A stretch of DNA of 64,000 nucleotides from Bacteriovoracaceae bacterium (GTDB lineage: Bacteria; Bdellovibrionota; UBA1018): the NCBI GenBank assembly GCA_947447665.1, contig CANFJX010000001.1, positions 211,911-275,910 on the forward strand, given 5' to 3'. Shown piece after piece: positions 33,460 to 64,000 of this stretch; positions within the stretch are counted from its first letter, which is position 1, and each line of letters starts with the position of its first letter. The translations under genes were made by a program, and so were the position numbers. The notes below the pieces were generated by a model. That model was not told where the DNA came from. It did no database searches and worked only from the letters and a program-made list of their open reading frames with translations.

Positions 33460-33513
33460 ATTCCACCCGAAAAATGCCATAATTAGAGCATAGAAGGCTG
33501 GAAATTAAATACG

Positions 33514-42198: not shown

Positions 42199-42233
42199 AA
42201 GATCTCCCTTCCAAAATAGAATTCCCTACTCCA

Positions 42234-49849: not shown

Positions 49850-50639
49850 CGCTCCCCTGGAAATGAAAATAAAGAATCAAACTCAGTATTACCATCAGGA
49901 TTAAAACCAGAGAAAGAGAAGAACCAAAGGGCCAATCACGAGTCTTAAGGAACTGCTCCGTAATCAAATTACCAATCAACATCGTTCGTGCCCCGCCGAG
50001 TAAATCCGGGATCACGAACTCACCTAGGGCTGGAGTGAAAACTAAAATTACCCCAGTAACAATCCCCCTTTTTGTTAATGGTAAAAGTACCGACCTAAGC
50101 AACTGCACTCTGGATGCGCCCAAATCCTTGGCTGCCTCCAAGAGTGTAAAATCAAATTTCTCAATCGATACATAAAGCGGCAGGATCATGAAAGGAAGGT
50201 AGTTGGTGACCATCCCCACGAGTACGATCCACGGGCCTGAACTCAGCCCCCCAAACAGCAATTTGGTCGCATACGCTCTCACAACAAAATTAGTCCAGAA
50301 CGGAATCACTACTAAAATTAGGAGCATCGATCTCGTCCGAGGAAGTGAGGTTGCCATCAAGTAAGCCATCGGATACCCCAAGAGGAGACAAAACACTGCA
50401 GTCATAGCTGCCAGCAGGACGCTATTCCCCAAAACTCGCAGGTAGATCCACTCCACGGTCCGTGCATAATTACTAAAACTCCAAGAATAAACTACCCCGC
50501 CGTATAATCCCTTGGTGGCAAAACTGTACGCAATGACGATTCCTAGAGGGATGATTAAAAACCAAAACAACCACCCTACCGTAGGTATGGCAAACCCAGC
50601 GGAGGTCTTCCAATTACCCAAGAGGCGAGTTTGACTCAC
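49818..50639 (-). CDS. ABC transporter permease (PotB/CysT-like)
   Basis: It has six TM helices and the EAA loop (LEAAKDLGAS). Confidence 0.75.
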   Translation of the reverse strand: MSQTRLLGNWKTSAGFAIPTVGWLFWFLIIPLGIVIAYSFATKGLYGGVVYSWSFSNYARTVEWIYLRVLGNSVLLAAMTAVFCLLLGYPMAYLMATSLPRTRSMLLILVVIPFWTNFVVRAYATKLLFGGLSSGPWIVLVGMVTNYLPFMILPLYVSIEKFDFTLLEAAKDLGASRVQLLRSVLLPLTKRGIVTGVILVFTPALGEFVIPDLLGGARTMLIGNLITEQFLKTRDWPFGSSLSLVLILMVILSLILYFHFQGSDEGDPISYAD

Positions 50640-51809: not shown

Positions 51810-52055
51810 TTACTTACCCTTATTGGATTTAGACGGAGAAGCTACCTTGCTAGCGGAAACTGTGTCACTCACGACACTCTTGCCTGTAACATCAGAACCA
51901 GCCGCGCAATCGGGCTCGCCGCTCTGCCCTGTCCCAACTTGCCCTGCCGCTTCAGAATCACCGGATAGCCTTGAATTCTCTGCTGCGAAACCTGGGGCAC
52001 TCAGGGCTGAAATTAAAACCAAGCTCAAACCAGAAATTTTAATAAAGTTTTTCAT
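51810..52055 (-). CDS. Small secreted Gly/Ser-rich, likely disordered protein (Bdellovibrio hit-locus Bd0108-like by position)
   Basis: It has a signal peptide (LVLISALSAPGFAAE) and a low-complexity mature region. It lies immediately upstream of the YD-repeat gene and the Tad cluster. Confidence 0.45.
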   Translation of the reverse strand: MKNFIKISGLSLVLISALSAPGFAAENSRLSGDSEAAGQVGTGQSGEPDCAAGSDVTGKSVVSDTVSASKVASPSKSNKGK

Positions 52056-52090
52056 AAAATCCTCTCATACATATTTTATGTTTATATATA

Positions 52091-53800
52091 TCAAAAAGCA
52101 AGACTTACTCCAGCCGGCCTAATGATATCTAGAAGACCCTGAAACGAGGTCGTCACCTGGGCAGCCACCTTTTTTCCGGCCTGACTGCTCACTTCCTTGA
52201 TCCCACCACTATTGTTGTAAGTAACTGTAATTGAGCCCAAAGCTGGGTCAGAAATTTCGATTGGCTTTGAGATCTCATTATACTTAAAATTGATCTGCTC
52301 TTTATTTTGATCAATCAGCGTTCGAATTCGACCTAGACCATCGTAAATCAACTTAACACCTTTACCTTCTGAGTTTTTAGCGAATGATAAATTCCCCTTA
52401 GAATCGTATTGAAACTCAGACCAAATTGATTTCTTCTTATCTTTGACAGGATACTTGACCACGCGATCTACCTTATTAGCTTTCTGATCGTAGTGCAGCT
52501 CCGTCACTTCATAGGGCGTTGTCTTCTTGGTGACATGCCCCTTAGCATCATAGACGAACTGAGTCTCATCGCTCCCCTGCTTAATCACCAGAGGCAACCC
52601 GCAACACTCGCTATAGGTGGTCTCCACCTTATCCCCATCAAAATCAGCAATCAACTTATAGGTCCACTCCTCACCCGTTGGCTTGACCTTGGTCAGATAC
52701 TGATACTTACTCTGCGACAGGACTTCCGATCCCTTCTTACTTACAACAGAAACTGAACTATTACCCTTATTTGCTGAGTTACTCCCGTAATCATACTCAG
52801 TCACAGTTCCATCACGATCTTTAACTCTCAGAACGTTCTCCTGCCGATCCATTCCATAATAACTAATGTTCATTGCAGTTTTGTCGACGTACCCAATCTC
52901 AATCATATTATGACGCCGTTGATCATCATAACGATAGCTATAGCTGTTACCGTCGACGTCCTTGCTCTGAGTGAGCTCGCCACCAGCGTTATAAGTGTAA
53001 ACAGCTGACTTCCCGCCCTCGCCGTCCATCTGAGAGACTAAACCCTGACTATTGTATGAAAAAAACATTTTCCGATTTAAGTTATCGACCAATTTTTTTA
53101 GATGTCCGTCGGCGCCGTATTCAAAGGCAATGTAATTTCCGTTTTTATCTGAAATTTTTGATAAATGTCCTTGATTATTAAATTTCTCAACCCGACCCGA
53201 ATCGGCCAAATTCCGCACATAACCGTCGCTCGTTTTAGTTATGTACTGATAGTTAAAACGATTGGACTGCAACTGAGTCCCCGTAGCAAGTTCCCGCGCC
53301 TTGATCTTTCCCTGAGCTTTAAATGCTTCCCACTGCTGATTTCTAAAGGAGGCATCGGCTCGCAGCCGACTCTTGTAATCGACTAATTGTGCTGCAGTGC
53401 CCAAGGTTCCCTCCTGCTGAGCCACCTTGGCAAGGCTATCGACTGCTTTCTCTAGCTCAGAGGCACTGAAGGCGAGGGGATTAAACCGATTCTCAGCCCC
53501 TCCGCCATATTCATGAACCACCACGCTGCCATCGGCAGATACGGTTAGATAAACCTCGAACTCATTACCCCAACCCCACCCAAACATTCCACGATAGGGA
53601 CTTTTTGAGTTATAAACACGCTCCAGTTTGGTTTCAAATCCACCGCTATAGATGGCGTCGGTATAGGCGATGAAAAAATTTCCATTCTTCAAGCTAACAT
53701 TTGCCTGCAAATCTTGCCCACCAAAAAAAACACCCAGAGTCACCAACATGGTGATGCCAAAATTTAATTTCATTGCGTGAATACCCCCAAAAAAGAACAA
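52091..53800 (-). CDS. Secreted YD-repeat (RHS-family repeat) protein without a recognisable C-terminal toxin domain
   Basis: It has a signal peptide and multiple YD repeats (YDAKGHVTKKT, YRYDDQRR, YTYNAGGELTQSKDVDGN); 569 aa. Confidence 0.7.
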   Translation of the reverse strand: MFFFGGIHAMKLNFGITMLVTLGVFFGGQDLQANVSLKNGNFFIAYTDAIYSGGFETKLERVYNSKSPYRGMFGWGWGNEFEVYLTVSADGSVVVHEYGGGAENRFNPLAFSASELEKAVDSLAKVAQQEGTLGTAAQLVDYKSRLRADASFRNQQWEAFKAQGKIKARELATGTQLQSNRFNYQYITKTSDGYVRNLADSGRVEKFNNQGHLSKISDKNGNYIAFEYGADGHLKKLVDNLNRKMFFSYNSQGLVSQMDGEGGKSAVYTYNAGGELTQSKDVDGNSYSYRYDDQRRHNMIEIGYVDKTAMNISYYGMDRQENVLRVKDRDGTVTEYDYGSNSANKGNSSVSVVSKKGSEVLSQSKYQYLTKVKPTGEEWTYKLIADFDGDKVETTYSECCGLPLVIKQGSDETQFVYDAKGHVTKKTTPYEVTELHYDQKANKVDRVVKYPVKDKKKSIWSEFQYDSKGNLSFAKNSEGKGVKLIYDGLGRIRTLIDQNKEQINFKYNEISKPIEISDPALGSITVTYNNSGGIKEVSSQAGKKVAAQVTTSFQGLLDIIRPAGVSLAF

Positions 53801-53809
53801 AAATTAAAA

Positions 53810-54670
53810 TCAAACGTCAATCTTAACCACTCTCATGATGACAAAGAAACCCGCAATTTCCAATACTATAATTACCAAAATACATAACCACCCTAGAGGA
53901 GTGGTAAAGAGGGGCCTCATCAGATCTGGGTCAGATTGATTCAGTATAAAGCCCAGAATCGGTGGAAGTGACATGACCAGAACCCCTTGATAAAATCCCT
54001 GGGCGGTCAGTGCCGCAATCTTATTCTCGACCTTAATTCGCTCTCGAATCGTAGTCACAATCGTATCAAAGGTCTCCGCCAAGTTTCCGCCGGTCTCCCT
54101 CAAGATATTTACCGAAGTCACAAACATTTCCACATCATCTGCGGGTATTCGTTTGGCAAGGCTCAAAAATGCATCCTCGATGGAAACACCCAACTTATTT
54201 TCACTCAGCACCAAGTTAAACTCCTGCTGAATCGGATTCGGCATTTCTTGACTCACGAGAGCCAAAGATTGGACCACTGATAGCCCCGACTTAAGCCCAT
54301 TAGACATCAAACTCAGACCGTCAACCATTTGAAGTACAAATCGATTCACTCTCCTTAAGTAATACCAATCGACTACCGGTTTAGGCGCCTTCCACCCAAT
54401 TACAGTCGTAACAATCGCGATTGGCAACCCTGGAATAATATTAGGTAAGAATGAAATAAATACAATTGATCCGAGACCGAAACTAAGTAAGAAGAGCCCG
54501 ATCAGAATCCTTTCAGAGGGCACTTCTATGAACATCATTGCCAGCTTCTCTACAATATAGTCACGAGTCCCAAGAGACTGAAATCGGAGCCAATCGAAAA
54601 ATCGGTTGCTATAGTGGTAAGCAAATAAAAAGCATGAAATTCCAAAAAGTAAGATTCCTATTAACTTCAT
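53810..54670 (-). CDS. tadC: Tad/Flp pilus assembly inner-membrane platform protein (TadB/TadC, T2SS-F family)
   Basis: It has the polytopic GspF-like domain and lies in the Tad cluster. Confidence 0.7.
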   Translation of the reverse strand: MKLIGILLFGISCFLFAYHYSNRFFDWLRFQSLGTRDYIVEKLAMMFIEVPSERILIGLFLLSFGLGSIVFISFLPNIIPGLPIAIVTTVIGWKAPKPVVDWYYLRRVNRFVLQMVDGLSLMSNGLKSGLSVVQSLALVSQEMPNPIQQEFNLVLSENKLGVSIEDAFLSLAKRIPADDVEMFVTSVNILRETGGNLAETFDTIVTTIRERIKVENKIAALTAQGFYQGVLVMSLPPILGFILNQSDPDLMRPLFTTPLGWLCILVIIVLEIAGFFVIMRVVKIDV

Positions 54671-54691
54671 TTTTAGCTCATTTCTAAAAAA

Positions 54692-56851
54692 TTATTTGGA
54701 GGCAAAGAGTCCTCTTGAAATTTTCATTCCCTTGGCTTCCATTTCTTCTACAAACTTTGGAATAAACCCTGTTGGAACAAATCTTCCGATAATCTTACGC
54801 TTCTTATCGAGCCCTTCTTGTTTGAAAACAAAAATATCCTGAAGGCTCACAACCTCGCCTTGCATCCCTACCACTTCAGTTATATAGGTTACCTTTCTGG
54901 CGCCGTCTCCCAGCCGAGACTGCTGAATAATCAAGCCGACAGCCGAAGCAATGTTTTCACGAATCGCCTTAGGAGACAAACCCAACCCTGCCATCATCAC
55001 TAGGGTCTCTAGCCTTGCTAGGCATTCCCTAGGATTATTAGAGTGAAGGGTTGTCAATGATCCGGAATGACCGGTGTTCATAGCCGATAGCATATCCAAT
55101 GCCTCACCACCTCGGCACTCTCCAACCACAATTCGATCTGGTCGCATTCGGAGGCAGCACTTAATCAGATCACGAATGCTCACCTCGCCCTCACCCTCAA
55201 TATTTTTAGGACGAGTCTCCAATCGAACCACATGCTCCTGACCCAGCTGGAGCTCAGCTGAGTCCTCGACGGTGATAATTCTCTCGGTGGAGGGAATAAA
55301 GTTAGACAACACGTTCAACAACGTGGTCTTACCAGAGCCAGTGCCTCCCGACACCACAATATTGAGCTTGGCCTCAACGCAACACCGAAGAAAATCCGCA
55401 ATTTCTTCGGTAATCGAACCAAACTGAATTAAATCCTTATACTCGATCCGCTTCTTTGGAAATTTTCGAATCGTGATGGTAGGGCCCCGGAGCGCTAAGG
55501 GCGGGATAATCACATGAACTCGCGAGCCGTCTTGAAGGCGAGCATCCACGTAGGGAACCTTCTCATCTACCCTCCGTCCGAGCGGAGTCACGATTCGCTC
55601 GATGACATTCATCATTTGACTCTCGCTCGAGAAATTGACCTTAGACATCTGAGGCTTTCCGCCTTTTTCAATATAGATTTGGTCCCGGGCGTTCACCATG
55701 ATTTCAGTGACACTATCATCGGCTAGCAAGTCCTCAAGCGGCCCAAGTCCGAGAGCCTCATCGAGGACTTCCTTCAACATTTGAGCCTTGAGCTCCCGAC
55801 TACTAAGTAAAGCATTCGTATCTTCTTTACCTAAAATATCTAAGACTGCCTTCTGAGTCCTCTCACGAAGTACCGCACGCTGCTTAGAGTCGCTCGTATC
55901 GGTATTCATCTTTTTAAGATCCATTTGATCCACTAATGCCTTATGGATCCTCAGCTTCATTGCCGTCCACGGGTCGAGCTGAGCTGCTGAACTCCGACCA
56001 AAAGGACTCCCGCCTCCATCCTTATTAGAGAGAGCAACAGATTCTTGTCCCACGCCCTGTGCCTTGGCAACAACACCGGTCGGCTTTTTGAGCCGACCTA
56101 GTGTCTCAAGGAGGTTACTCTGTTGCATCTTTCGAACAATGTCATGGTAAGCTCTTGCGATCGGCGTCCCAGCGGCTGAGATACAAAGGGGAGTACTCTT
56201 GGCGAGCGAGCCCTCGCACGTCCCAACGTCATCAGGGAGAGCCGCGTAGATAGGCCTACCAAGATTTTTTTGAATCATCTGAGGATTAACGAAATTATTT
56301 TGGGAATACCTATTAATGATGACTTGCACCATCTCGGGAGGGAAGAGTAGCTCCTGAATTTTTGTAAGTATTCTCCTGGTTTGATTGATTACGATTAAGT
56401 CGGGAGAAGTAACGACAAAAATGAGAGTCGCAAACTCAAAGGTCTTAAACGCCGCCGCCTCGGTCCCATTCCCGCAATCAATCACAACGTAATTGAAAAC
56501 CTGGGTAATCGCCTTGAGAAACCTCCCTAACCCGTCCAGATCAATATCTCGAGCTACAATGGCATCTCTAGGCGCCCCAATGTAGCTATAACCCGCTGCT
56601 GTATTCACCATAAAAGGGGCAAGCGTCTTTGGATCGACAGGGCCTGGTGGCATTTTAGAAACGTCAACAATGTTCTTCTGAGGGTTTTGACCAAGAATAA
56701 TATTCTGATCCCCCAGACTCGCCAAATCGAGATCCACAATCAGAGGCCTCTGCTTAAACTCGAGCAAGTGAGATATCGCGAGGTTCGCTGCAAAGACGCT
56801 CTTTCCAACTCCCCCCTTACCTCCTACAACAGCTATAATGTGTCCAGCCAT
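54692..56851 (-). CDS. Fused TadZ/CpaE-like ParA/MinD ATPase plus TadA/CpaF secretion ATPase
   Basis: The N-terminal 270 aa carry the deviant Walker [12 protein letters not shown] (MinD/ParA/CpaE type). The C-terminal 400 aa carry the CpaF Walker [18 protein letters not shown], Walker B and His box. Confidence 0.8.
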
Positions 56852-56869
56852 GAAATTCCGACCCCCAAT

Positions 56870-58573
56870 TCAGTTAACTTTTACTCTGAAATTTTTCTTT
56901 AGATCCTCGGTCCCATCAGATGCGTTCTCTATAATCTGTGGGGTAACAAAAATAACAAAGTTACTCTTATTTTTTCGATACGCCTTAGAATGCAGCAAAT
57001 TAAATAAGGGAACCGTGGTATTGCTTGATGTTCCGGAAGCGCCCCCAGTTGGGTCGTCCTTGTTAAATTCCGTCGCGACGTTCTGACCGTTTACCCCAGC
57101 AATGGCTGCACTTTCATTCGACTTAACGTAAACCTTGGTATTCACTTTATGGGTGGCAGTCACAGGCGCACCACCACTTGTAGAAGCCTGACCCACTAAG
57201 TCTGTCTGATCAAGTTCCATATCCATTTGAATATCTTCACTTTGTCCTAGGATCTGCGGAGTCACTGCCACGGAGAGCCCGACTGCCTTGCTTTGGCTAG
57301 TCATTTGGCCATTTTGGCCAGCAACCAGAAATGGATACTCCGTCTGCTCTTTTAGGGTGGCGGGCTGCCCGCTACGAACCACCAAGGTCCCCGTTTTAAG
57401 AACTCTTGCATATCCAGCAGTCTGAAGACTACTTAACTTCGGAAGCAGACTTGAGACAGTCCCCCCGAAAGATGCCGCATTAGCACTACTACCGGCTGCG
57501 CCCGCGGCATTCTGGCCAATAGTAATATAGGGGTCAGAGGTAAATCCAGGCTGCCACTTAAATCCAAAAACTTTATTATAATCCTTGGCTAACTCTACGA
57601 AGTGGACTGTTACACGAACGAGTTTTTCATTTTTCCTAGGCGGCGCTGGTAGCACCATAATAAAATTTTGTACTAAATTTCGTTGAGCAACCCGCTGAGC
57701 AGTCAAGTCCTTCTCTAAAAGAGTACTCGGCTTGATCTCAGGAAGATAAAGGGAGGCAATCTGGGCAGCTCGTTTCGCCTCATCTAATGAATTGGTCGTG
57801 CCCTCTAAAAAAATCATCCCGTTCACCACTCGAGTTCTCACGTTGGGGGCGAATGCAGAAATATCACCTTGAATTCGATTGGCTAAGAACTGCATCGCCA
57901 AGGGCGATAGCACCGTTAGATTCATAACAAAATCGAGATAGGTTTTATCTGAGATCACTGCATAAAGGCGGCCGTAATCGGCAGGAACCAAAACCTCACC
58001 TTCGATCACAATTTTAGGACCTACGATTCTGATAGTAATACCTTCAATATCTCGGAGTAGGTCCGTGACTTCGGCCTTAATCCTGAGCAAGTTGCTCCCA
58101 GTAACCCGAACCACAAATATAATGCCAATATTGCCTTCTTCATCTCTGATCGTCACAGTCGTTTCGCCAGCCTTCAGAGGCTTCAATACCACCTGCTTCC
58201 GATCCCCAATCTTAGCTAGAGTTGCTGTCACAACGAGAGGATTTCCATAGCTAATACCAGCGGGTGTCATGTTCGCGTCGAAATTTAGATCGACCGCTTT
58301 ATCCTCCCCTGTCGTTAACAAGAGCCGACGCCTATCGGCAACCTCCTCAGACTGATCGTAGGTAACTCGAGACTTCCTATATTTTTTCTGCAGTGGTCCG
58401 GACGCACTAGGGTCAGCGGATTGAGCAGGAGCACTCCGTGGTCTGTCCGAAGCGGCTGGCTGGCCTGCTACCACTCCAGACTGAGCGTCTTCAGCCCGAG
58501 CAAAACCCATGAACGAAGTAAAAATAACTAAAGTCGCTGAAATCAAAATAGTGATTGTATATTTAGTCTTCAA
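56870..58573 (-). CDS. cpaC: Tad pilus secretin CpaC/RcpA
   Basis: It has a signal peptide and a C-terminal secretin domain (...TVPLFNLLHSKAYRKNKSNFVIFVTPQII). Confidence 0.8.
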   Translation of the reverse strand: MKTKYTITILISATLVIFTSFMGFARAEDAQSGVVAGQPAASDRPRSAPAQSADPSASGPLQKKYRKSRVTYDQSEEVADRRRLLLTTGEDKAVDLNFDANMTPAGISYGNPLVVTATLAKIGDRKQVVLKPLKAGETTVTIRDEEGNIGIIFVVRVTGSNLLRIKAEVTDLLRDIEGITIRIVGPKIVIEGEVLVPADYGRLYAVISDKTYLDFVMNLTVLSPLAMQFLANRIQGDISAFAPNVRTRVVNGMIFLEGTTNSLDEAKRAAQIASLYLPEIKPSTLLEKDLTAQRVAQRNLVQNFIMVLPAPPRKNEKLVRVTVHFVELAKDYNKVFGFKWQPGFTSDPYITIGQNAAGAAGSSANAASFGGTVSSLLPKLSSLQTAGYARVLKTGTLVVRSGQPATLKEQTEYPFLVAGQNGQMTSQSKAVGLSVAVTPQILGQSEDIQMDMELDQTDLVGQASTSGGAPVTATHKVNTKVYVKSNESAAIAGVNGQNVATEFNKDDPTGGASGTSSNTTVPLFNLLHSKAYRKNKSNFVIFVTPQIIENASDGTEDLKKNFRVKVN

Positions 58574-59406
58574 CGCTTTACTCCCTGACTCTTAGCCTTC
58601 GCGATCGCTTCTGCGCCAACCACATCAACCAAGCCTGCCATTGGAAGCGGAACACGCTCTAAATCATCGTTATTCCTCAGTGCCACCGAAAGTGCGTTAT
58701 CACCATTATTAATCAAAATCGCGAGAGTCTGAACCTGAGCCGGCTCAACCTCGACTGTTACGGTGGAAAAAGTAAAGTCATCAGCCAGCGACTTAACTCG
58801 CTCTTTCCCGCCCATGGGATCGATCTCGACACTTCGGGCCACATTATTCGTGATATAGTGTCCAGTTGCCAATACAACCAGATCTTGCAACACGGTCTTG
58901 GCAACCTTGTTTTCCTTTCCTGCACCCACATCGACCACCGCAACTAGATCGATTCGATCCCCGGGCTTAATCAACTTAGACACCCCAGTCAGGTCATTAA
59001 TAGGGATTGAGTAGGCTCGTTTACCTGGAGTTACCTGCGTCGAAAGGCCTGTTCGAGTTCCAGGCTCAGTCATTTTATTGTAGGTAATCTGCTCACCCTT
59101 CTTAATAGGAACCACTGCAATGCTCCCGGCGATTCCCCTCAGGGTCTTGGAAGTCTCCTTCTCGTCTTCCTTCTTTTCTAGGGAAATAGAGGATGGCTCT
59201 AAGTACCTTTTTGGAATGGGCTTAAACTCGAGCATCGGCTCGTTTATCGTCTCCATCTCAAGAATATCTTTTTTAGCAACTAGCACTAAAACCTCTGAGC
59301 CATTTCGCTTCTTAGCTTCATCCTCAATACTCGACACGTAGCTGTTCATAAAAATGACTGCTATGATGGCAAATAGGGCAGCAAATCTAACTGTTTTGTT
59401 ATTCAT
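58570..59406 (-). CDS. cpaB: Flp pilus assembly protein CpaB/RcpC
   Basis: It has an N-terminal TM followed by SAF-like domains. It is translationally coupled to cpaC. Confidence 0.7.
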   Translation of the reverse strand: MNNKTVRFAALFAIIAVIFMNSYVSSIEDEAKKRNGSEVLVLVAKKDILEMETINEPMLEFKPIPKRYLEPSSISLEKKEDEKETSKTLRGIAGSIAVVPIKKGEQITYNKMTEPGTRTGLSTQVTPGKRAYSIPINDLTGVSKLIKPGDRIDLVAVVDVGAGKENKVAKTVLQDLVVLATGHYITNNVARSVEIDPMGGKERVKSLADDFTFSTVTVEVEPAQVQTLAILINNGDNALSVALRNNDDLERVPLPMAGLVDVVGAEAIAKAKSQGVKR

Positions 59407-59420
59407 TCTTCACCTTCTCC

Positions 59421-60053
59421 CTAGGGACCATCGACCAAATATTTCAGTTTACTTCCACAATAACTTGCCAACGAACTTCCACTCGCAATCGAAGACATCG
59501 CCGAATATCCCATGAGCGGCGTCACCGGAAATGGTCCGCGTGGATTGTTAAATCCAACCTGATAATTCTGAGTGCAAAGAGTCACAGTGTTTCGAATCCG
59601 AACGTTTGCTCGAGATGCCTTGGGTTCCGATTGAGCCTCATTCGAAGCCTGCAATGCTCGGGGGTTGCTCGGACTTCGGGCGACGTTTTGCACGGTTGCC
59701 TCTGGAGAATAGGAACTATCCCCTGATGAATCTAAGTTCCCTGACACACCCACTAATATCTGGTTCATTTGAAAGGTCATCAGAGTCTGCTGCTTCGATT
59801 TTTCTGGATAAAATGGGCTATTATAGGTGAGAAAAAGGGCCTGTGCCCTAGAATAATTTTGATCCACAATGGATATTTGAATCGCAGTGTTCACATGAAT
59901 CATCAAAATCGCAAGTCCCAACAAAAGGGGCATCAGCAGAACAAATTCAACCATGCTCTGACCGCTCGAATCACAATTCAAGTGAAGAAAATAATGTCTA
60001 GCAACCATTATCAAATATCCCCTTGAGAGTTCCCATTGCTGCGGTACATTCAA
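59421..60053 (-). CDS. TadE/TadG-like pseudopilin
   Basis: It has the TadE-like N-terminal motif SGQSMVEFVLLMPLLLGL. Confidence 0.5.
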   Translation of the reverse strand: MNVPQQWELSRGYLIMVARHYFLHLNCDSSGQSMVEFVLLMPLLLGLAILMIHVNTAIQISIVDQNYSRAQALFLTYNSPFYPEKSKQQTLMTFQMNQILVGVSGNLDSSGDSSYSPEATVQNVARSPSNPRALQASNEAQSEPKASRANVRIRNTVTLCTQNYQVGFNNPRGPFPVTPLMGYSAMSSIASGSSLASYCGSKLKYLVDGP

Positions 60054-60582
60054 CCTCAGATGGCTCTCTTCCTAACCAGCTCTCCGATGTCAAAGTAATC
60101 GAGCTAGGTGGGGACGCCGACGCTGAGCCACGCTTGCGCCCAATTGGAAGGGGAAATAATCTGCTCGTAAATGTGTAGCGAGCCCCGACCATCCACAAAC
60201 TATTATCATCACTCGCTTGATAGAGCCGGCCTGGGCCAAGGTCCAATCCTGGAAAGTCAGCACTCGCCCCGCCGGAACCCTTAGCAATTGAAGGAAACTT
60301 ATCTGACCTTGGTTGATAGGCCGATCTTTTCAACATATAGCCGATAACAAATTGTGCCCTTTGCTGCTGATCGGATGAGTCCGGCCCCGAGGAGAGATAG
60401 GATCGTGCTGCCATGAACGTCGCATAGTGAGCGTAGTTTCCAAATGAAAAAGCCAGAGAAGTCTGAAGCAGAAAAAAGGTAAACCCCAGAAAGAGGGTCA
60501 TTGTCAGAGCAAACTCGACTGTTGACTGCCCGTCACAATCTCTACTGAGAATATGCGCCGAAAAATATTCGGAAGTTTCCAT
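59998..60582 (-). CDS. TadE-like pseudopilin
   Basis: It has the motif DGQSTVEFALTMTLFLGF. Confidence 0.5.
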   Translation of the reverse strand: METSEYFSAHILSRDCDGQSTVEFALTMTLFLGFTFFLLQTSLAFSFGNYAHYATFMAARSYLSSGPDSSDQQQRAQFVIGYMLKRSAYQPRSDKFPSIAKGSGGASADFPGLDLGPGRLYQASDDNSLWMVGARYTFTSRLFPLPIGRKRGSASASPPSSITLTSESWLGREPSEVECTAAMGTLKGIFDNGC

Positions 60583-60823
60583 TAGAATTTATCCTCGGAT
60601 GCATCACTGCAGCACCCTCATCTGGACCAGTAGCTTTCGGATGACCATACTTATAAGCCGAAAAAAATGGACCTGATACAATGGTTAGAACCTTTTTTGA
60701 GATATTCATTTGACCAATGATTGCGGAAATCGCTACGAAGAAAGTAACAATAGCTGAAATCAGCAAAATGTACTCCGTCGTTGCCTGACCAGACGAATCA
60801 TGAACCCAACGTTTATCTATCAT
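60542..60823 (-). CDS. TadE/Flp-like minor pilin
   Basis: It has the motif SGQATTEYILLISAIVTFF. Confidence 0.45.
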   Translation of the reverse strand: MIDKRWVHDSSGQATTEYILLISAIVTFFVAISAIIGQMNISKKVLTIVSGPFFSAYKYGHPKATGPDEGAAVMHPRINSNGNFRIFFGAYSQ

Positions 60824-61359
60824 TGAAGGAGCCCTCCGTCCCTCGCTACTGTGATCATCACTGCAAGCGAAATCATCACCCCATATGGGATTTTGTCTTC
60901 AAGATCGATTGGAGAATAATGAGCCTCCAATCCAGGCACGCAAACTGATAAAATAAAATCAGTTAGTTTTCTAAAAAAATTAAATAGCCGTCCACGCAGG
61001 GCGAGAGAAACCATCGCAAAGCCTCCACCTAATAAAATGGCTAGGATACCTACATGAATGATAAACTCCGGACCACCCCAGGTACCTAGTGCCATCAAGT
61101 ACTTAACGTCTCCTCCACCCAAAAACCTGAGCCAAAACATCCAGCTCACAAGAAGAAAAGCAACCAACAGTCCACCCAACGATTGATACAAACCGCCCCA
61201 AAGTGTTAGACCGGAAAAAAAGCACGAATTGACGATACCCACCAGAGCAAGCGAAACTGTAAACCAATTAAATATTTTCCTTAAAATTAGATCTGAGAGT
61301 ATTGCTGCTACAGAGGCAAGCACTAGAAAAATAGGAGCGTGATTAATTGCTCCAAACAC
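60820..61359 (-). CDS. Prepilin peptidase (A24 family, TadV/CpaA)
   Basis: It is polytopic and carries the GGGDVKYL catalytic Asp motif. Confidence 0.7.
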   Translation of the reverse strand: MFGAINHAPIFLVLASVAAILSDLILRKIFNWFTVSLALVGIVNSCFFSGLTLWGGLYQSLGGLLVAFLLVSWMFWLRFLGGGDVKYLMALGTWGGPEFIIHVGILAILLGGGFAMVSLALRGRLFNFFRKLTDFILSVCVPGLEAHYSPIDLEDKIPYGVMISLAVMITVARDGGLLQ

Positions 61360-61567
61360 TGAGTGGAGCCCTTCCTGATTTTAGATCCTGCTCTAAGACA
61401 GCGCCAACGCGTAGAACAACAAGATCGAGGGATCCAATGATTTGACGTCCAACTTGGGAGGCTCCAACAACAACGAGAGCCACCACGAGCAGGTACTCCA
61501 CTGTGCCCTGGCCTTCTTGGCTCTTTGTGCGATTACTGAGATGTGACCGCGGAGTCAATCTGACCAC
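61343..61567 (-). CDS. flp: Flp/Fap pilin
   Basis: It has the Flp motif GQGTVEYLLVVALVVV (G/EY cleavage motif plus hydrophobic helix). Confidence 0.6.
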   Translation of the reverse strand: MVRLTPRSHLSNRTKSQEGQGTVEYLLVVALVVVGASQVGRQIIGSLDLVVLRVGAVLEQDLKSGRAPLSVWSN

Positions 61568-61733
61568 CTACAGTGCTCACGGCGTTTAATAGGCTAGATT
61601 GAAATTGCGCTTTGAACTTCAAGACGATCATCACTACGATGGCCAACATCAGAAGGTACTCGGTCATCGACTGGCCTTCTTCATCTTTCCAAAGCTTGGT
61701 TAAAAACTTTTTCATAAGCACTCTCTCTTCCAT
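61533..61733 (-). CDS. flp: Flp/Fap pilin
   Basis: It has the Flp motif EEGQSMTEYLLMLAIVVMIV. The likely start is the internal MKKFL. Confidence 0.6.
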   Translation of the reverse strand: MEERVLMKKFLTKLWKDEEGQSMTEYLLMLAIVVMIVLKFKAQFQSSLLNAVSTVGGQIDSAVTSQ

Positions 61734-61808
61734 CTCCCTCCTATTCGGAAACAGGATGGAAAACTTAAATCTAATACTATTATAATTTTATCATACACAA
61801 ACTGTCAA

Positions 61809-62570
61809 CTAAAAAATACCCAATACTATCGATAGGTTATCGTTCGAATTAGGCTCACACTTAACTAAATTAAACACTTCATTGGCCGCTTGTTCCGGCT
61901 TTAGATTTTTTTGCTTAATTTGACAAATTTGGCTCACCCATTGAGCCTCGTTGTCCACCCGAACACCGTCAGTCTGAAGAATCAACCAGTCCTGAGGCAT
62001 CAGCCTGCACTCGACAATTTCAGGTTCCAGATCCTCGTACATTCCAAGCGCCGTCAAGGGCACCTGATACTGGCTGCCATGAGATGAACCCAACAATGCC
62101 GCTGCTGGATCGACGAGGCGTCCGTAAGTCCTAGGACTCACCAAGGGCACGCCGGTACTGCCCCGAAAAAGCCAAGCCCTGCAGGATCCTATATTCGCCA
62201 GGGCGAGGAAATCTCCATCCAAGAATCCAGTCAGTACGGATGCGCCACCTCGCTCATTAATATTCCTCTTCTTATTGTCTTCAAGAATCTTTTGATTTGC
62301 ATAGATGAGTGCATTAAAAAGAACATTTCCAGCCAGAGAAATATAACTGCGTAAAACAAAGGGTAGAGTAGCGTCCATATCCCGAGAGCCTCGAAGTAGA
62401 AATGCCTCAATCAGATCGCACGCAAGTCGGGAAGTACGGGAACCGGGAGCAGGTCCTCCAAAGCCATCTGCGACAGAGAGAATTCCTCGTTCGGAGTGAA
62501 TCCTAAGTTCGTCCTCTTGCGCAGGCCTGGGCCCCTGTAGTTTAAGACTAGCAAAATAGGGTCGAGTCAT
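61809..62570 (-). CDS. PP2C-family Ser/Thr protein phosphatase
   Basis: It has ILSVADGFGG and further PPM motifs (TDGV); 253 aa. Confidence 0.65.
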   Translation of the reverse strand: MTRPYFASLKLQGPRPAQEDELRIHSERGILSVADGFGGPAPGSRTSRLACDLIEAFLLRGSRDMDATLPFVLRSYISLAGNVLFNALIYANQKILEDNKKRNINERGGASVLTGFLDGDFLALANIGSCRAWLFRGSTGVPLVSPRTYGRLVDPAAALLGSSHGSQYQVPLTALGMYEDLEPEIVECRLMPQDWLILQTDGVRVDNEAQWVSQICQIKQKNLKPEQAANEVFNLVKCEPNSNDNLSIVLGIF

Positions 62571-64000
62571 TTTGGCTGTTCTCCTCCCCCTGGTGGGGGG
62601 TTTTGAACTTGGGGTTGAACGACTGAAGCAGTAGGGTCGGCGACGACTTGGGCTGGCTCAGGAGCTGCCTCGGGTGCTGGCTGAAGCGAAACAAATTTCG
62701 TCAACTTCCTCACGGACCGGTCGTGATAAATATCATCGGGTGGAGCAATCTCGAGGCACTTTTTGAATAGTTTTTCTGCTGCATCGAAGTCACTATAATT
62801 TTCTGCGATGACGGCCTCCGTATAGACTACCTTAGCTTGATCATGAAGGGCTCCTCGAATTCGACTCATCCCATCGTACCCAGCTGGATGGTGGGAATCG
62901 ACTCGAGTTGCTTTTTGATACAACTTAAAGGCACCCATGAAGTCGCCATTTATCTCCGCATTTTTTGCTCCGGCGAGAATAGGGTCTCGCAGCTTTCGGA
63001 TCTTAATCCTGTCTTCTCCAATTCTTAAATGAGATTGCTGAAGTAATTTTTGATCGGTCACGCCGATATCCACTATTTTTTTCAAAGTAGAAATGGAACT
63101 TTGATATTTACCAGATTTTTCTTGAGCGAGACCTTGGCGATACATTCTCCAGCCTTCAGCATTAATTTCTCTTTTCACTTGATCTAATTGGATTTGAACT
63201 TTTTTCTTCTCCTCAATAGCATCGATATCTTTTCTCCAATCAGCAACAGGTCCGTTGTCGGGATCTATCGCTAGAATTTGGGTAAAAAGTTCGCGTGCCT
63301 CTTCGTACTGCTTTTCTTTCATCTTACTTCTTGCGTCTTCAACTAGTGATGCCACCCTCGACTTTAACTGTTCTTCCTCTTCTTTCTTCCTTTTCTCTTC
63401 GTCGATAGATTCCTGTTTTCTTTTACCCTCTTTTGCATAGCGCTGGATCTCCCTGGAATCCTTATAATCTGGGATAATATTGAATATTTTTTCAATTTCA
63501 AAAATTGACTTATCGAAATCTTTATTCTTATAGTAATCAAAAGCTAAAGCATGTTGATCCTCTACAAATTTTCGTTTATCAGCTGGAAGCTTCTCAAAAC
63601 TGAGATCATTGGGAACTCCGGAAGCCTGTACAGTCACCTTCTTAATGGGAGCGATCGGTTTGGCCTTCGACCCAGAGTCGTCATCTAAGAACCACCAAAT
63701 AAACATAATCGCTGCAATGACCACCACAACCTGGGTTCTACGAGGGAGGGCCTTAAATCTTTCCTCAAGCCCTTTACCTTGGGGTTTTACTGACTCCAAG
63801 CCAATGACACCACTCATGCCGGCAGAGGAGCTACCTAATGACTCAGCCGAGTCTTGTGCAAACTCCAGCGGACTATCACTCTCTAGTTGAGGCGAGTGGA
63901 AATCATCTCCAATCTCATCGGGTATGACCTCGAGCTGGGATTTCTGGGCTTCGTACTCATGGTTGATGACCTTGAATTGAAACTCAGTATCTCCAATTTG
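62567..64000 (-). CDS. FHA-domain - TM - TPR-repeat protein (5' end beyond the window)
   Basis: The ORF continues upstream of the annotated Met to the window end. That translation (…QIGDTEFQFKVINHEYEAQ…) resembles an FHA C-terminus. A single TM helix (VVVIAAIMFIWWF) and multiple TPR-like repeats follow. Confidence 0.55.
   Translation of the reverse strand, partial: QIGDTEFQFKVINHEYEAQKSQLEVIPDEIGDDFHSPQLESDSPLEFAQDSAESLGSSSAGMSGVIGLESVKPQGKGLEERFKALPRRTQVVVVIAAIMFIWWFLDDDSGSKAKPIAPIKKVTVQASGVPNDLSFEKLPADKRKFVEDQHALAFDYYKNKDFDKSIFEIEKIFNIIPDYKDSREIQRYAKEGKRKQESIDEEKRKKEEEEQLKSRVASLVEDARSKMKEKQYEEARELFTQILAIDPDNGPVADWRKDIDAIEEKKKVQIQLDQVKREINAEGWRMYRQGLAQEKSGKYQSSISTLKKIVDIGVTDQKLLQQSHLRIGEDRIKIRKLRDPILAGAKNAEINGDFMGAFKLYQKATRVDSHHPAGYDGMSRIRGALHDQAKVVYTEAVIAENYSDFDAAEKLFKKCLEIAPPDDIYHDRSVRKLTKFVSLQPAPEAAPEPAQVVADPTASVVQPQVQNPPPGGGEQPK

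What the first reader, a model, noticed from the sequence alone, without database searches (positions are those of the whole stretch)
51810..64000. Bdellovibrio-type host-interaction (hit) locus: small disordered secreted protein + YD-repeat protein + complete Tad/Flp pilus cluster
The gene order matches the described B. bacteriovorus hit region (Bd0108/Bd0109 followed by the flp/tad genes). It runs: small Gly/Ser-rich secreted ORF, YD-repeat protein, tadC, ATPase, cpaC, cpaB, TadE-like x3, prepilin peptidase, flp x2. In Bdellovibrio, mutations in the small gene switch cells to host-independent growth, and the pilus is needed for prey entry. This identifies the organism as a probable predatory bacterium and marks a biologically central locus.
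Basis: partly seen in the sequence, partly recalled or inferred. Interest (0 to 1): 0.65.

Follow-up and report, generated by a model that had tools for sequence, protein, structure and literature searches.

The report
Predator-type Tad pilus operon, hit-like tail
This is the main Tad (Flp) pilus operon of an uncultured Bdellovibrionota bacterium, gene-for-gene like the pilus/"hit" region of the predator Bdellovibrio bacteriovorus, but its small last gene matches the Bdellovibrio lifestyle-switch gene Bd0108 only in position and protein type, so this is a good annotation of a known kind of locus, not a discovery.

Summary
Observation confirmed.

I fetched two real B. bacteriovorus hit loci. 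Gene order is the same from flp to the small gene, including the unusual TadZA fusion and the single platform gene. The YD protein is a full-length homologue of Bd0109 (31-32% identity, E about 1e-86).

The 81-aa protein is not a detectable member of the Bd0108 family. Its mature part scores 0.8 bits against a 16-sequence Bd0108 profile, no better than shuffles, and it lacks the CxxC core. It is nevertheless a real gene. A signal-peptide, Cys-bearing, low-complexity ORF follows the YD gene directly in all 19 loci that cover that position (in L013, 1.4 kb downstream), and dN/dS is 0.06-0.40.

The closest relatives are Bdellovibrionota MAGs, some of which a 2026 paper places in GTDB class UBA1018. 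Differences from Bdellovibrio: TadV is present, both Flp motifs are complete, and a consensus sigma-70 promoter precedes a sigma-28-like motif.

The locus type is already published. Predation and lifestyle switching are inferred, not shown. Interest is modest.

The parts
62567..63817 (-). 416-aa membrane-anchored TPR protein. Conserved upstream neighbour and possible regulator; not part of the pilus operon proper.
   Evidence: TPR_1/TPR_2 hits. An N-terminal hydrophobic segment is visible in the translation. Syntenic in 8 related loci at 37-56% identity. No counterpart in the B. bacteriovorus loci.
61809..62570 (-). 253-aa PP2C-type Ser/Thr phosphatase. It overlaps the TPR gene by 4 nt. Conserved upstream neighbour and possible regulator.
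   Evidence: PP2C_2 8e-6. Syntenic in 8 related loci at 46-58% identity. Absent upstream of flp in B. bacteriovorus.
61779..61808 (-). Sigma-70-type promoter TTGACA-18-TATAAT (12 of 12 consensus positions) just upstream of flp.
   Evidence: A TTGAC / TATAAT-like pair is aligned at the same place in 10 related loci.
61742..61768 (-). Sigma-28 (FliA)-like motif TTAAGTTT-N11-TCCGAATA, between the sigma-70 -10 element and the ribosome-binding site.
   Evidence: 12 of 16 consensus positions; 1.4% of shuffles do as well. Homologous positions in 8 of 10 related loci score 12-14 of 16, each with p <= 0.02. Not found at <= 3 mismatches. B. bacteriovorus L018 has TAAAG-N15-GCCGATAA (L019: GCCGATAC) at the equivalent place.
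61533..61733 (-). Flp pilin 1. 66 aa as the maximal ORF; the likelier start is the second ATG at 61715, giving 60 aa. Leader ...KDEEG|QSMTEY.
   Evidence: Flp1_like 1.7e-6. G/xxxxEY motif. 32-43% identical to B. bacteriovorus Flp1.
61343..61567 (-). Flp pilin 2, 74 aa, GTG start, complete motif ...SQEG|QGTVEY.
   Evidence: conserved in 11 loci. Unlike Bdellovibrio Flp2, which begins MTIEY with no leader (PMC5430801).
60820..61359 (-). TadV/CpaA-type prepilin peptidase, 179 aa.
   Evidence: Peptidase_A24 2e-10. Motifs ..LSDLIL.. and ..GGGDVK... Absent from the B. bacteriovorus loci.
60542..60823 (-). Minor pilin, 93 aa, leader ...DSSG|QATTEY.
   Evidence: Conserved in 11 loci. Positional counterpart of the 85-aa gene in B. 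bacteriovorus.
59998..60582 (-). TadE-like minor pilin, 194 aa.
   Evidence: TadE 2.4e-7. 23-25% identical to the 214-218-aa B. bacteriovorus gene, E 1e-7 to 1e-10.
59421..60053 (-). TadE/TadF-like minor pilin, 210 aa.
   Evidence: TadE 5.6e-4, below the Pfam cut-off. Conserved in 11 loci.
58570..59406 (-). CpaB/RcpC, 278 aa.
   Evidence: RcpC 4e-21 plus SAF. 38% identical to the B. bacteriovorus protein.
56870..58573 (-). CpaC/RcpA secretin, 567 aa.
   Evidence: Secretin 7e-18. 34% identical to the B. bacteriovorus protein, E 5e-77.
54692..56851 (-). TadZ-TadA (CpaE-CpaF) fusion ATPase, 719 aa.
   Evidence: CbiA/ParA at residues 4-213 plus T2SSE at 367-644. KGGVGKS at residue 12 and GGTGSGKT at residue 502. 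47% identical to the 736-738-aa B. bacteriovorus TadZA. The fusion is described for HD100.
53810..54670 (-). The single TadB/C-type inner-membrane platform protein, 286 aa.
   Evidence: T2SSF 4e-17. 45% identical to B. bacteriovorus Bd0110-type protein. No second copy in the window.
52091..53773 (-). Bd0109 orthologue: a Sec-exported 560-aa protein with DUF6531, a three-helix insert, a partial YD/RHS beta-shell and a C-terminal helix. The maximal ORF reaches 53800.
   Evidence: Pfam. Equals deposited protein P0001. 31-32% identity over the full length to B. bacteriovorus Bd0109 orthologues. AlphaFold model pLDDT 86.8. Best PDB matches are T6SS Rhs cores, covering about a third of those shells. 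No DPxG autoprotease motif and no toxin domain.
51810..52055 (-). 81-aa secreted, low-complexity, single-Cys protein. It is a positional analogue of Bd0108 but not a detectable family member.
   Evidence: RBS GAGAGG 5 nt upstream of the ATG and a 35-nt gap after the YD stop. Called as a gene in the public records. An equivalent ORF is present in all 19 loci that cover the position. dN/dS 0.40 and 0.06 in two pairs of relatives. No Bd0108 similarity. Predicted coil apart from the signal-peptide helix.

Best explanation
The region is the primary Tad (type IVc, 'Kil-like') pilus operon of an uncultured Bdellovibrionota bacterium. Its closest relatives include MAGs that a 2026 paper places in GTDB class UBA1018. 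It is orthologous to B. bacteriovorus tad locus 1 together with its hit-region tail.

Transcription (inferred). It starts at a consensus sigma-70 promoter directly upstream of flp, probably backed by a sigma-28-like promoter. It then runs through twelve tightly packed genes.

Assembly (inferred from the families). The two Flp prepilins and three minor pilins are cut after the conserved Gly by the in-locus TadV peptidase. They are polymerised on the single TadB platform by the TadZ-TadA fusion ATPase. The fibre exits through the CpaC secretin with CpaB.

The last two genes (inferred by analogy). Both products are exported by Sec signal peptides. One is a toxin-less half-shell YD/RHS protein, the Bd0109 orthologue. 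The other is a fast-evolving disordered protein with one cysteine. By analogy with the demonstrated Bd0108-Bd0109 interaction, I propose that the small protein binds the YD protein in the periplasm and tunes pilus extrusion or signalling.

What is shown: gene content, order, orthology, selection on the small gene and its positional conservation.

What is inferred: operon structure, pilus function, the YD-small protein partnership, and any role in prey attack.
For: - Gene content and motifs.
- Collinearity with 14 Bdellovibrionota loci.
- Collinearity with two B. bacteriovorus loci. HD100 primers map into the expected genes.
- The TadZA fusion and the single platform gene are shared with HD100 tad locus 1 as described in 10.64898/2026.07.08.737194.
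- The YD protein aligns over its full length with Bd0109 orthologues at E about 1e-86. It models confidently as a partial Rhs-type shell.
- A small ORF with a signal peptide and a Cys-containing low-complexity body directly follows the YD gene in all 13 GTDB loci that cover that junction (L013 has it 1.4 kb downstream), and also in L017, L018-L022 and the window. The background rate for my crude signal-peptide criterion is about 1% of ORFs.
- dN/dS of 0.06-0.40 shows the small ORF is translated.
- Promoters.
- Bd0108-Bd0109 binding and co-transcription with bd0110/0111 are published (PMC3818213 and PMC4267844).
- A Kil/Tad system syntenic with HD100 has already been reported for the UBA1018 MAG FG-1 (PMC13200544).
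Against: - There is no sequence evidence that the 81-aa protein is related to Bd0108. It has one Cys instead of CxxC, and no direct-repeat mutational hotspot.
- No invariant Cys exists in the YD protein that could pair with it.
- No terminator was found after the small gene, so the operon boundary with the downstream potA-like ABC transporter is unclear.
- The organism is uncultured, so predation is not demonstrated.
- Full-length DUF6531-YD homologues also occur in a MAG labelled Syntrophus. The literature says Bd0109 homologues accompany Tad loci in other bacteria.
- I did not classify the genome with marker genes.
Confidence: 0.8

Rival explanations
1. The 81-aa gene is a true, merely diverged Bd0108 orthologue with the same lifestyle-switch function, so its loss would give prey-independent growth in this organism.
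For: - It has the same position, orientation, size class and signal peptide, with a disordered, Cys-containing body.
- The protein at this position turns over beyond recognition even within Bdellovibrio. KM01, HCB337 and MAG L022 carry 90-117-aa secreted Cys proteins that score -0.8 to 15.6 bits (7.9 for KM01) against the full-length Bd0108 profile, which includes the signal peptide. KM01 is reported to 'lack' Bd0108. Lack of similarity is therefore weak evidence against common descent.
Against: - There is no detectable similarity at the sequence or profile level. The hhalign hit covers only the signal peptide.
- The Bd0108 family is confined to 17 clusters among 5.8 billion proteins.
- The N-terminal Bd0109-binding region that is conserved in Bd0108 has no counterpart here.
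- Host-independent variants also arise without bd0108 mutations.
- Function cannot be transferred from position alone.
Confidence: 0.25
2. It is an ordinary adhesion or biofilm Tad pilus locus of a non-predatory bacterium. The resemblance to the Bdellovibrio hit region only reflects shared ancestry of the phylum and says nothing about lifestyle.
For: - Tad loci are widespread.
- About 20% of Bdellovibrionota MAGs lack the system, and the lifestyle of class UBA1018 is only inferred.
- A consensus sigma-70 promoter suggests constitutive rather than attack-phase expression.
- YD homologues occur in at least one non-Bdellovibrionota MAG.
Against: - Distinctive features are shared with the predator system: the TadZA fusion, the single platform gene, the Bd0109 orthologue at the operon end, and a conserved sigma-28-like motif.
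- Kil-like Tad systems have so far been found only in predatory lineages (PMC8460266).
Confidence: 0.12
3. The YD protein is an Rhs-type polymorphic toxin or effector, and the small gene is its immunity or chaperone partner, unrelated to the pilus.
For: The best structural and sequence matches in the PDB are T6SS Rhs effectors and Tc toxin BC shells.
Against: - At 560 aa it covers only about a third of those 1,000-residue-plus chains (target-normalised TM about 0.33).
- It has no C-terminal toxin domain, no DPxG autoprotease motif and no PAAR/VgrG region.
- It is conserved end to end, which is the opposite of polymorphic C-termini.
- It always sits at the end of tad operons.
- The small protein carries a signal peptide, which is unusual for an immunity protein against a cytoplasm-acting toxin.
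Confidence: 0.03
4. The 81-aa ORF is a chance ORF in an intergenic spacer, not a gene.
For: It has no Pfam hit and no BLAST-detectable homologue, even in loci where the YD protein is 72% identical.
Against: - A good RBS precedes it.
- An equivalent ORF with a signal peptide is kept at the same place in all 19 loci that cover it.
- Frame and length are preserved, with dN/dS of 0.06-0.40.
- Exactly one mature-region Cys is present in 13 of 14 relatives.
Confidence: 0.03

Closest known systems
B. bacteriovorus HD100 tad locus 1 plus hit region (bd0119-bd0108)
   Same: - The gene order matches from flp to the small secreted gene.
- It shares the TadZ-TadA fusion ATPase and the single in-locus platform gene.
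- The Bd0109 orthologue aligns over its full length.
- A small Sec-exported, Cys-containing, low-complexity protein is the last gene.
- There is a sigma-28-like motif upstream of flp.

   Different: - TadV is present here. It is absent in Bdellovibrio, which uses PilD.
- Both Flp pilins have full leader motifs, whereas Bdellovibrio Flp2 is trimmed.
- A consensus sigma-70 promoter is added.
- There is one small gene instead of an array of two or three.
- The small protein has no Bd0108 core, no CxxC and no repeat hotspot.
- The upstream neighbours are TPR plus PP2C rather than chemotaxis or other genes.
- Protein identities are only 31-47%.
Tad/Kil loci of UBA1018-class Bdellovibrionota MAGs (FG-1, FG-2, CAIRTR01; PMC13200544)
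   Same: The whole cluster, including TPR, PP2C, TadV and the YD protein, is collinear. Identities to FG-2 (L003) and Kiruna3_bin-3974 (L004) are 61% for the YD protein and 81% for the ATPase.
   Different: This is a different species or genus. The nearest GTDB representatives reach 72% (YD) and 87% (ATPase). The small protein differs in sequence in every lineage. I did not see the paper's Figure 6, so I cannot say whether it annotates the YD and small genes.
TAD loci of Bacteriovorax / Halobacteriovorax (PMC5430801; PMC4267844)
   Same: From the literature: TadV lies in the locus and there are several TAD-associated full-motif flp genes. The Bd0109 homologue BMS_0182 is followed by small signal-peptide ORFs with no Bd0108 homology.
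   Different: I did not compare these sequences directly, because none were fetched. They are reported to have three TAD-associated flp genes and two small ORFs.
Myxococcus xanthus Kil system (PMC8460266, PMC12075869)
   Same: It is a Tad-derived machine of predators. TadD, TadG and RcpB are missing from the core loci. Phospho-signalling proteins lie nearby: FHA-domain proteins there, PP2C here.
   Different: - Kil is split into two clusters.
- Its ATPase is fused to an FHA domain rather than to TadZ.
- It has two platform proteins.
- No YD/Bd0109-type gene is reported in the passages I read.
Short secreted gene arrays next to Bd0109 homologues in Bdellovibrionales MAGs (PMC10469934)
   Same: Signal-peptide ORFs of 57-133 aa lie beside Bd0109 homologues, with little or no similarity to Bd0108. 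This is the same phenomenon seen here.
   Different: Those are arrays of two or three genes in order Bdellovibrionales. Here there is a single gene, in a lineage whose nearest classified relatives are placed in class UBA1018.

Membership tests
Tad/Flp (type IVc) pilus system | Flp-type major pilin with the G/xxxxEY processing motif followed by a hydrophobic stretch | tested here: met
   EEG|QSMTEYLLMLAIVV and QEG|QGTVEYLLVVALVV. Flp1_like hit at 1.7e-6, which is below the Pfam cut-off.
Tad/Flp (type IVc) pilus system | Dedicated TadV/CpaA prepilin peptidase (Peptidase_A24 without a methyltransferase domain) | tested here: met
   179 aa, Peptidase_A24 2e-10. Two Asp motifs are present.
Tad/Flp (type IVc) pilus system | TadA/CpaF ATPase, RcpA/CpaC secretin, RcpC/CpaB, TadZ/CpaE and TadE/F minor pilins | tested here: met
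   Pfam hits for T2SSE, Secretin, RcpC, CbiA/ParA and TadE.
Tad/Flp (type IVc) pilus system | Two platform proteins (TadB and TadC), plus TadD, TadG and RcpB | tested here: not met
   There is one T2SSF gene only, and no second copy in the 64-kb window. No TadD, TadG or RcpB was recognised among the cluster's genes. They could lie elsewhere in the genome, as TadC and TadG do in HD100.
B. bacteriovorus-type tad locus 1 / hit region | Collinear order: flp, minor pilins, rcpC, rcpA, tadZA, tadB, bd0109, small secreted gene | tested here: met
   Direct comparison with L018 and L019.
B. bacteriovorus-type tad locus 1 / hit region | TadZ-TadA fusion ATPase | tested here: met
   719 aa with ParA-like and T2SSE domains; 47% identical to the 736-738-aa Bdellovibrio protein.
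B. bacteriovorus-type tad locus 1 / hit region | Bd0109 orthologue (signal peptide, DUF6531, about 13 RHS repeats, about 550 aa) | tested here: met
   31-32% identity over about 557 aa, E 1e-85 to 1e-87. Same Pfam architecture.
B. bacteriovorus-type tad locus 1 / hit region | No TadV in the locus, and a trimmed Flp2 (MxxEY at the N-terminus) | tested here: not met
   TadV is present and both Flp proteins have leaders. This arrangement resembles the Bacteriovorax/Halobacteriovorax state described in PMC5430801.
B. bacteriovorus-type tad locus 1 / hit region | FliA (sigma-28) promoter upstream of flp1 | tested here: inconclusive
   The window has TTAAGTTT-N11-TCCGAATA (12 of 16), conserved in 8 of 10 relatives. 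It is not found at <= 3 mismatches and lies downstream of a perfect sigma-70 promoter.
Bd0108 protein family | Conserved core RtvNPGeDPNE ... CxxC-ARmKH-R ... DDTTYR | tested here: not met
   The family alignment is A2. The mature 81-aa protein scores 0.8 bits, and 127 of 200 shuffles reach that. BLASTP finds no hit at E=10. It has one Cys only.
Bd0108 protein family | Small Sec-exported intrinsically disordered protein encoded immediately downstream of bd0109 | tested here: met
   Signal peptide, a 35-nt gap after the YD stop, low-complexity composition, and a coil-only AF2 model. Disorder is predicted only, and the Uversky value is borderline.
Bd0108 protein family | Binds Bd0109, and its mutation gives host-independent growth | not testable with these tools
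   Requires biochemistry and genetics.
Rhs / YD polymorphic toxins | Closed YD shell with a C-terminal aspartyl autoprotease (DPxG...) and a variable toxin domain | tested here: not met
   No DPxG motif. The model covers only about one third of the solved Rhs-core chains (target-normalised TM about 0.33). The C-terminus is conserved across 50 homologues.
Phylum Bdellovibrionota (organism) | Nearest relatives of the locus and its flanks belong to the phylum | tested here: met
   Of the 14 GTDB loci, 13 are labelled as Bdellovibrionota lineages and one is labelled only 'Proteobacteria bacterium'. The named protein hits are Bdellovibrionota or Oligoflexia, apart from one record with mixed Methylotenera/Oligoflexia labels. 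L003, L004 and their kin are class UBA1018 according to PMC13200544. No marker-gene phylogeny was run.

The most novel reading that the evidence does not exclude
The small secreted, Cys-bearing disordered protein may be the ancestral, phylum-wide partner of the tad-linked YD-shell protein. On this reading, Bd0108 is just the Bdellovibrio-specific face of a module that evolves too fast for homology searches to follow. The Bd0108/Bd0109 pilus-sensing and growth-decision switch would then exist in uncultured classes such as UBA1018. Inactivating this one small gene might be a general route to prey-independent (axenic) growth of uncultivated predators.
Probability: 0.25. Interest if true: 0.55.

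Novelty: new member of a known kind. Interest (0 to 1): 0.3.

Why it matters
The locus is correctly flagged as biologically central. [quoted passage not shown]

Finding the same architecture in a lineage outside Bdellovibrio, whose nearest classified relatives belong to class UBA1018, supports two ideas. First, the TadZA fusion, single platform gene and YD protein form an old, conserved unit in the phylum. Second, TadV loss and Flp2 trimming are derived Bdellovibrio traits.

The one point with some forward value is that 'absence of Bd0108' in comparative genomics is probably an artefact of sequence turnover. A positional analogue is present in every locus I could examine at that position. That gives a concrete candidate gene for experiments on lifestyle switching outside Bdellovibrio.

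None of this overturns current understanding. Similar synteny and similar small secreted ORFs have already been published (PMC13200544, PMC10469934, PMC4267844).

Tried and rejected
1. Reaching Bd0109 through the window protein's own homologue list failed. The top 120 hits were all 56-100% identical sequences from MAGs and metagenomes, none from Bdellovibrio isolates.

2. The 50%-identity representative search plus two cluster look-ups gave almost no useful names. The route that worked was different. I translated the published cloning primers to get the Bd0109 termini LVDMKNANYS and PATAELYL. I then picked representative P0228 by its C-terminus, searched with it, and fetched the B. bacteriovorus loci.

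3. Profile-profile comparison of the small-protein alignments gave 84% probability. The aligned columns are essentially the signal peptides, so I rejected it as evidence of homology. Repeating with mature regions gave nothing above shuffles. My first two attempts at that test were invalid, because of a stale output file and then incompatible HMMER flags.

4. Possible bridging sequences did not hold up. L012 (CNDPNDPKCPC) and the L013 downstream ORF (CKEC) were not significant, at 3.9 and 2.6 bits.

5. I looked for a Bd0108-like direct-repeat deletion hotspot in the small gene and found none.

6. A strict sigma-28 consensus search of the window (<= 3 mismatches) missed the flp upstream site. 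Only the comparative test supports it.

7. The HD100 'sRNA' primers could not be mapped onto L018/L019, so I dropped the idea that the reported sRNA is the mRNA of the second small ORF.

8. The Rhs-toxin reading was rejected.

9. Rfam found only one tRNA in the window and no rRNA for taxonomy.

Full report
**1. What is in the sequence**

All are on the minus strand and tightly packed. In transcription order they are:

| Coordinates | Product |
|---|---|
| 62567-63817 | 416-aa TPR protein with an N-terminal hydrophobic segment |
| 61809-62570 | 253-aa PP2C phosphatase |
| 61808-61779 | Promoter TTGACA-18-TATAAT, 12 of 12 consensus positions |
| 61533-61733 | Flp pilin 1 |
| 61343-61567 | Flp pilin 2 |
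| 60820-61359 | 179-aa Peptidase_A24 (TadV) |
| 60542-60823 | Pilin-like protein, 93 aa |
| 59998-60582 | Pilin-like protein, 194 aa |
| 59421-60053 | Pilin-like protein, 210 aa |
| 58570-59406 | CpaB/RcpC |
| 56870-58573 | Secretin |
| 54692-56851 | 719-aa ParA-like plus T2SSE fusion ATPase |
| 53810-54670 | The only T2SSF platform protein |
| 52091-53800 | DUF6531 plus RHS-repeat protein |
| 51810-52055 | 81-aa ORF |

Both Flp pilins have complete G/xxxxEY motifs. The ATPase has KGGVGKS at residue 12 and GGTGSGKT at residue 502.

The RHS protein most likely starts at the ATG at 53773. That gives the 560-aa protein deposited publicly (P0001, 100% identity).

The 81-aa ORF has a GAGAGG ribosome-binding site and lies 35 nt after the YD stop. 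It has a Sec-type signal peptide. Its mature part is rich in Ser, Gly and Ala, has no aromatic residues, and has a single Cys. A single-sequence AlphaFold model shows only the signal-peptide helix.

A potA-like ABC transporter follows on the same strand, with no recognisable terminator in between. No second platform gene exists in the window, and no TadD, TadG or RcpB was recognised in the cluster. 'Complete' is therefore slightly generous.

**2. Whose genome**

The YD protein occurs at 100% identity in the NCBI MAG GCA_947379915.1 and on Logan contigs of up to 1 Mb. Those gene calls include the 81-aa ORF.

A scan of GTDB species representatives returned 14 loci. Thirteen are labelled Bdellovibrionota, Oligoflexia, Bdellovibrionales or Bacteriovoracaceae MAGs, and one is labelled 'Proteobacteria bacterium'. 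YD identity is 55-72%.

Three of these relatives link to a published classification:
- L003 is the magnetotactic MAG FG-2.
- L004 is Kiruna3_bin-3974 (genus CAIRTR01).
- L012 is an R2F MAG from the same series as a UBA1018 MAG (metabat.28) named in the paper; L012 itself (metabat.55) is not mentioned in the passages I read.

PMC13200544 places FG-1, FG-2 and their relatives in GTDB class UBA1018, sister to Bacteriovoracia. The window's ATPase is 81-87% identical to these loci but only 47% identical to B. bacteriovorus.

I therefore place the organism in Bdellovibrionota, probably in or near UBA1018. This rests on the locus and its flanks, not on a marker-gene tree.

**3. Synteny with relatives**

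tblastn of all window proteins against the 14 loci shows the whole block conserved in order wherever the contig extends far enough. That block runs TPR, PP2C, flp, flp, TadV, three pilins, CpaB, secretin, fusion ATPase, T2SSF, YD. In two loci the potABC-like genes follow as well.

**4. Direct test against the real hit locus**

The tools do not hold HD100 directly, so I worked from published primers. The cloning primers in PMC3818213 translate to the following termini:
- Bd0109 mature N-terminus LVDMKNANYS and C-terminus PATAELYL.
- Bd0108 termini DENANRPVN and EKAGTGRQ.

The primers also show that bd0108 starts right after bd0109.

A representative with a matching C-terminus (P0228) led to named B. 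bacteriovorus proteins. Those led to two loci: L018 (GCA_001592735.1) and L019 (CP168971.1). HD100 RT-PCR primers for bd0109, bd0110 and bd0111 map, with 3-4 mismatches, into the YD, T2SSF and ATPase genes of these loci.

The order in those loci is:
- Flp1 (62 aa).
- Flp2 (62-64 aa, starting MTIEY).
- Minor pilins of 85, 214-218 and 164 aa.
- RcpC, secretin, the 736-738-aa ParA+T2SSE fusion, and one T2SSF gene.
- YD protein (550-551 aa).
- A 96-aa secreted protein with CKEC or CPEC; one copy is annotated 'hit locus'.
- A further secreted ORF of 57-66 aa.

This is the window's order minus TadV.

BLASTP of window proteins against these loci:

| Window protein | Result against B. bacteriovorus |
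|---|---|
| YD | 31-32% identity over about 557 residues, E 1e-85 to 1e-87 |
| T2SSF | 45% |
| ATPase | 47% |
| Secretin | 34% |
| CpaB | 38% |
| TadE-194 | 23-25% |
| Flp1 | 32-43% |
| TPR, PP2C, TadV | No counterpart |
| 81-aa protein | No hit, even at E=10 |

**5. Is the small protein a Bd0108?**

A profile search with the two Bd0108 orthologues found only 17 clusters among 5.8 billion proteins. The named ones are all Bdellovibrio. Their alignment shows a well-conserved core: RtvNPGeDPNE ... CPECiARmKH.R ... DDTTYR.

The tests of the window protein against this family gave:
- The full-length profile scores the window protein at 4.1 bits. hhalign gives 84% probability, but the aligned columns are the signal peptides.
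- With mature regions only, the window protein scores 0.8 bits, and 127 of 200 composition-matched shuffles do as well.
- It has one Cys rather than CxxC, and no internal direct repeats.

By every test available it is not a recognisable member of the Bd0108 family.

**6. It is nevertheless a real, positionally conserved gene**

All 13 GTDB loci that cover the position have, right after the YD gene, an ORF of 66-106 aa. Each has a signal peptide, a low-complexity body and, almost always, exactly one Cys. L017 has one too. In L013 an inserted gene on the opposite strand separates the YD gene from an 84-aa secreted ORF.

These proteins are not BLAST-detectable to each other except between closest pairs. 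A weak motif around the Cys is visible by eye, for example GQSGEPDCAAGSD in the window against GQSDDASCEAVSD in L001.

Codon-level comparison of two pairs gives dN/dS of 0.40 and 0.06, with frame and length kept. The adjacent YD gene gives 0.22 and 0.04.

A crude signal-peptide-plus-hydrophilic-body filter passes 27 of 651 ORFs of 50-115 aa in all the sequence I held. Sixteen of those are the post-YD ORFs and most of the rest are minor pilins. Background is therefore about 1%.

The same turnover occurs inside Bdellovibrio:
- Strain KM01 is reported to lack Bd0108. It has a 90-aa secreted CVNC protein at that position.
- HCB337 has a 117-aa four-Cys protein.
- MAG L022 has a 109-aa protein.
- Their scores against the Bd0108 profile are 7.9, 15.6 and -0.8 bits.

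The best description is a fast-evolving positional analogue. Common descent with Bd0108 is plausible but unproven.

This pattern has been noticed before. Halobacteriovorax BMS_0183/4 are mentioned in PMC4267844. Bdellovibrionales MAGs with arrays of 57-133-aa signal-peptide ORFs are described in PMC10469934.

**7. The YD protein**

An AlphaFold model built from a 50-sequence alignment has pLDDT 86.8. It shows:
- An N-terminal beta domain (DUF6531).
- A three-helix insert at residues 104-153.
- About 30 beta-hairpin strands.
- A C-terminal helix.

Foldseek matches T6SS Rhs cores, teneurins and Tc toxin BC shells at E down to 1e-25. Query-normalised TM is at most 0.59 and target-normalised TM is about 0.33, so the protein forms only part of a shell.

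Further points:
- There is no solved structure of a Bd0109-type protein.
- There is no DPxG autoprotease motif and no toxin domain.
- The sequence is conserved to its C-terminus, so it is not a polymorphic toxin.
- No Cys is invariant, so a conserved disulfide with the small protein is not supported.

**8. Promoters**

B. bacteriovorus L018 has TAAAG-N15-GCCGATAA upstream of flp1, and L019 has the near-identical TAAAG-N15-GCCGATAC. This agrees with the published FliA control of the operon.

The window and nine relatives instead share a TTGAC(A/T)...TATAAT-type promoter.

Between that promoter and the RBS, 8 of 10 loci have a sigma-28-like element, TyAAGTTT-N11/12-(G/T)CCGATa. It scores 12-14 of 16 consensus positions, each with p <= 0.02 against shuffles. 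The window's copy, TTAAGTTT-N11-TCCGAATA, scores 12 of 16. It is too degenerate to be found on its own.

Tandem sigma-70 and FliA promoters are therefore my inference, not an established fact.

**9. How it probably works**

From established knowledge of Tad systems, and from the Bdellovibrio work:
- TadV cleaves the Flp and minor pilins.
- The TadZA fusion powers assembly on TadB and, in Bdellovibrio, localises the machine to the invasive pole.
- The fibre leaves through the secretin.
- The periplasmic YD protein (whose gene, bd0109, could not be deleted in HD100, suggesting it is essential) and its small disordered partner modulate pilus extrusion and downstream signalling.

In Bdellovibrio the Tad machine is needed for lasting prey attachment and invasion. 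All functional statements for the window's organism are inferences from orthology. The TPR and PP2C genes are conserved neighbours in this clade, and they may supply phospho-dependent regulation like the FHA-rich surroundings of Kil systems. That is speculation.

**10. Verdict**

- It is not supported on Bd0108 homology.
- It is over-confident about lifestyle.

The locus is a new member of a known and already published kind (PMC5430801, PMC13200544, PMC10469934). The only mildly new point is that the 'Bd0108 slot' is filled in all 19 loci that cover the position (in L013 the equivalent ORF lies 1.4 kb downstream), including a lineage outside Bdellovibrio whose nearest classified relatives belong to class UBA1018, by a protein that evolves beyond recognition.

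Noticed in passing
window 61742-61808 (minus strand); the same region in L002, L003, L005, L008, L012, L013, L014: There appear to be tandem promoters upstream of flp. A perfect sigma-70 consensus is followed, before the RBS, by a conserved sigma-28-like element TyAAGTTT-N11/12-gCCGATa. B. bacteriovorus has only the sigma-28 type at this place.
   Followed up: partly
window 61809-63817: A membrane-anchored TPR protein and a PP2C phosphatase overlap by 4 nt and are syntenic upstream of the tad operon in all 8 related loci that reach that far. They are absent from the B. bacteriovorus loci. They may be a clade-specific regulatory module.
   Followed up: partly
L018 12167-12340; L019 12166-12366; L020 5125-5334 and 5582-5755; L021 5215-5430: Bdellovibrio loci carry, after the Bd0108-type gene, one or two further secreted ORFs of 57-71 aa. 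Each has a single Cys near the mature N-terminus (PKC, PVC, GSC, STC) and a Ser/Thr/Lys-rich tail. These probably correspond to the BD_RS00505/Bd0103 class. They lie where a 'non-coding sRNA between bd0103 and bd0108' was reported, but the HD100 sRNA primers could not be mapped onto these strains.
   Followed up: partly
L020 4666-4938 (Bdellovibrio sp. KM01, CP058348.1): KM01 is listed in a 2025 preprint as lacking Bd0108. At the Bd0108 position it has a 90-aa secreted protein with a CVNC motif. This suggests that 'absence' calls reflect sequence divergence rather than gene loss.
   Followed up: partly
L013 11707-13344: In this one relative, a 425-aa gene on the opposite strand is inserted between the YD gene and an 84-aa secreted ORF. 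That ORF contains CKEC, the same tetrapeptide as in one B. bacteriovorus Bd0108 orthologue. The match to the Bd0108 profile is not significant.
   Followed up: yes
window 49013-51756: A potA/potB/potC-like ABC transporter starts 53 nt after the small gene, on the same strand, with no terminator-like site between them. It is also adjacent in L002 and L008. Transcription may read through from the tad operon.
   Followed up: no
window 27146-37067: This stretch is dense in chemotaxis genes. It holds two CheA-CheW hybrid kinases (913 and 905 aa), of which only the 913-aa one shows a receiver-domain hit, on opposite strands, together with an MCP and a CheB.
   Followed up: no
window 18928-22164: A 1078-aa hybrid histidine kinase with GAF, several PAS domains, HisKA, HATPase, a receiver and an Hpt domain. 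A sigma-54 activator and kinase pair lies at 40837-43610.
   Followed up: no
protein P0273: A full-length 557-aa DUF6531-YD homologue is annotated in a MAG labelled Syntrophus sp. Either the family extends beyond Bdellovibrionota or the contig is mis-binned. Its genomic context could not be fetched.
   Followed up: no
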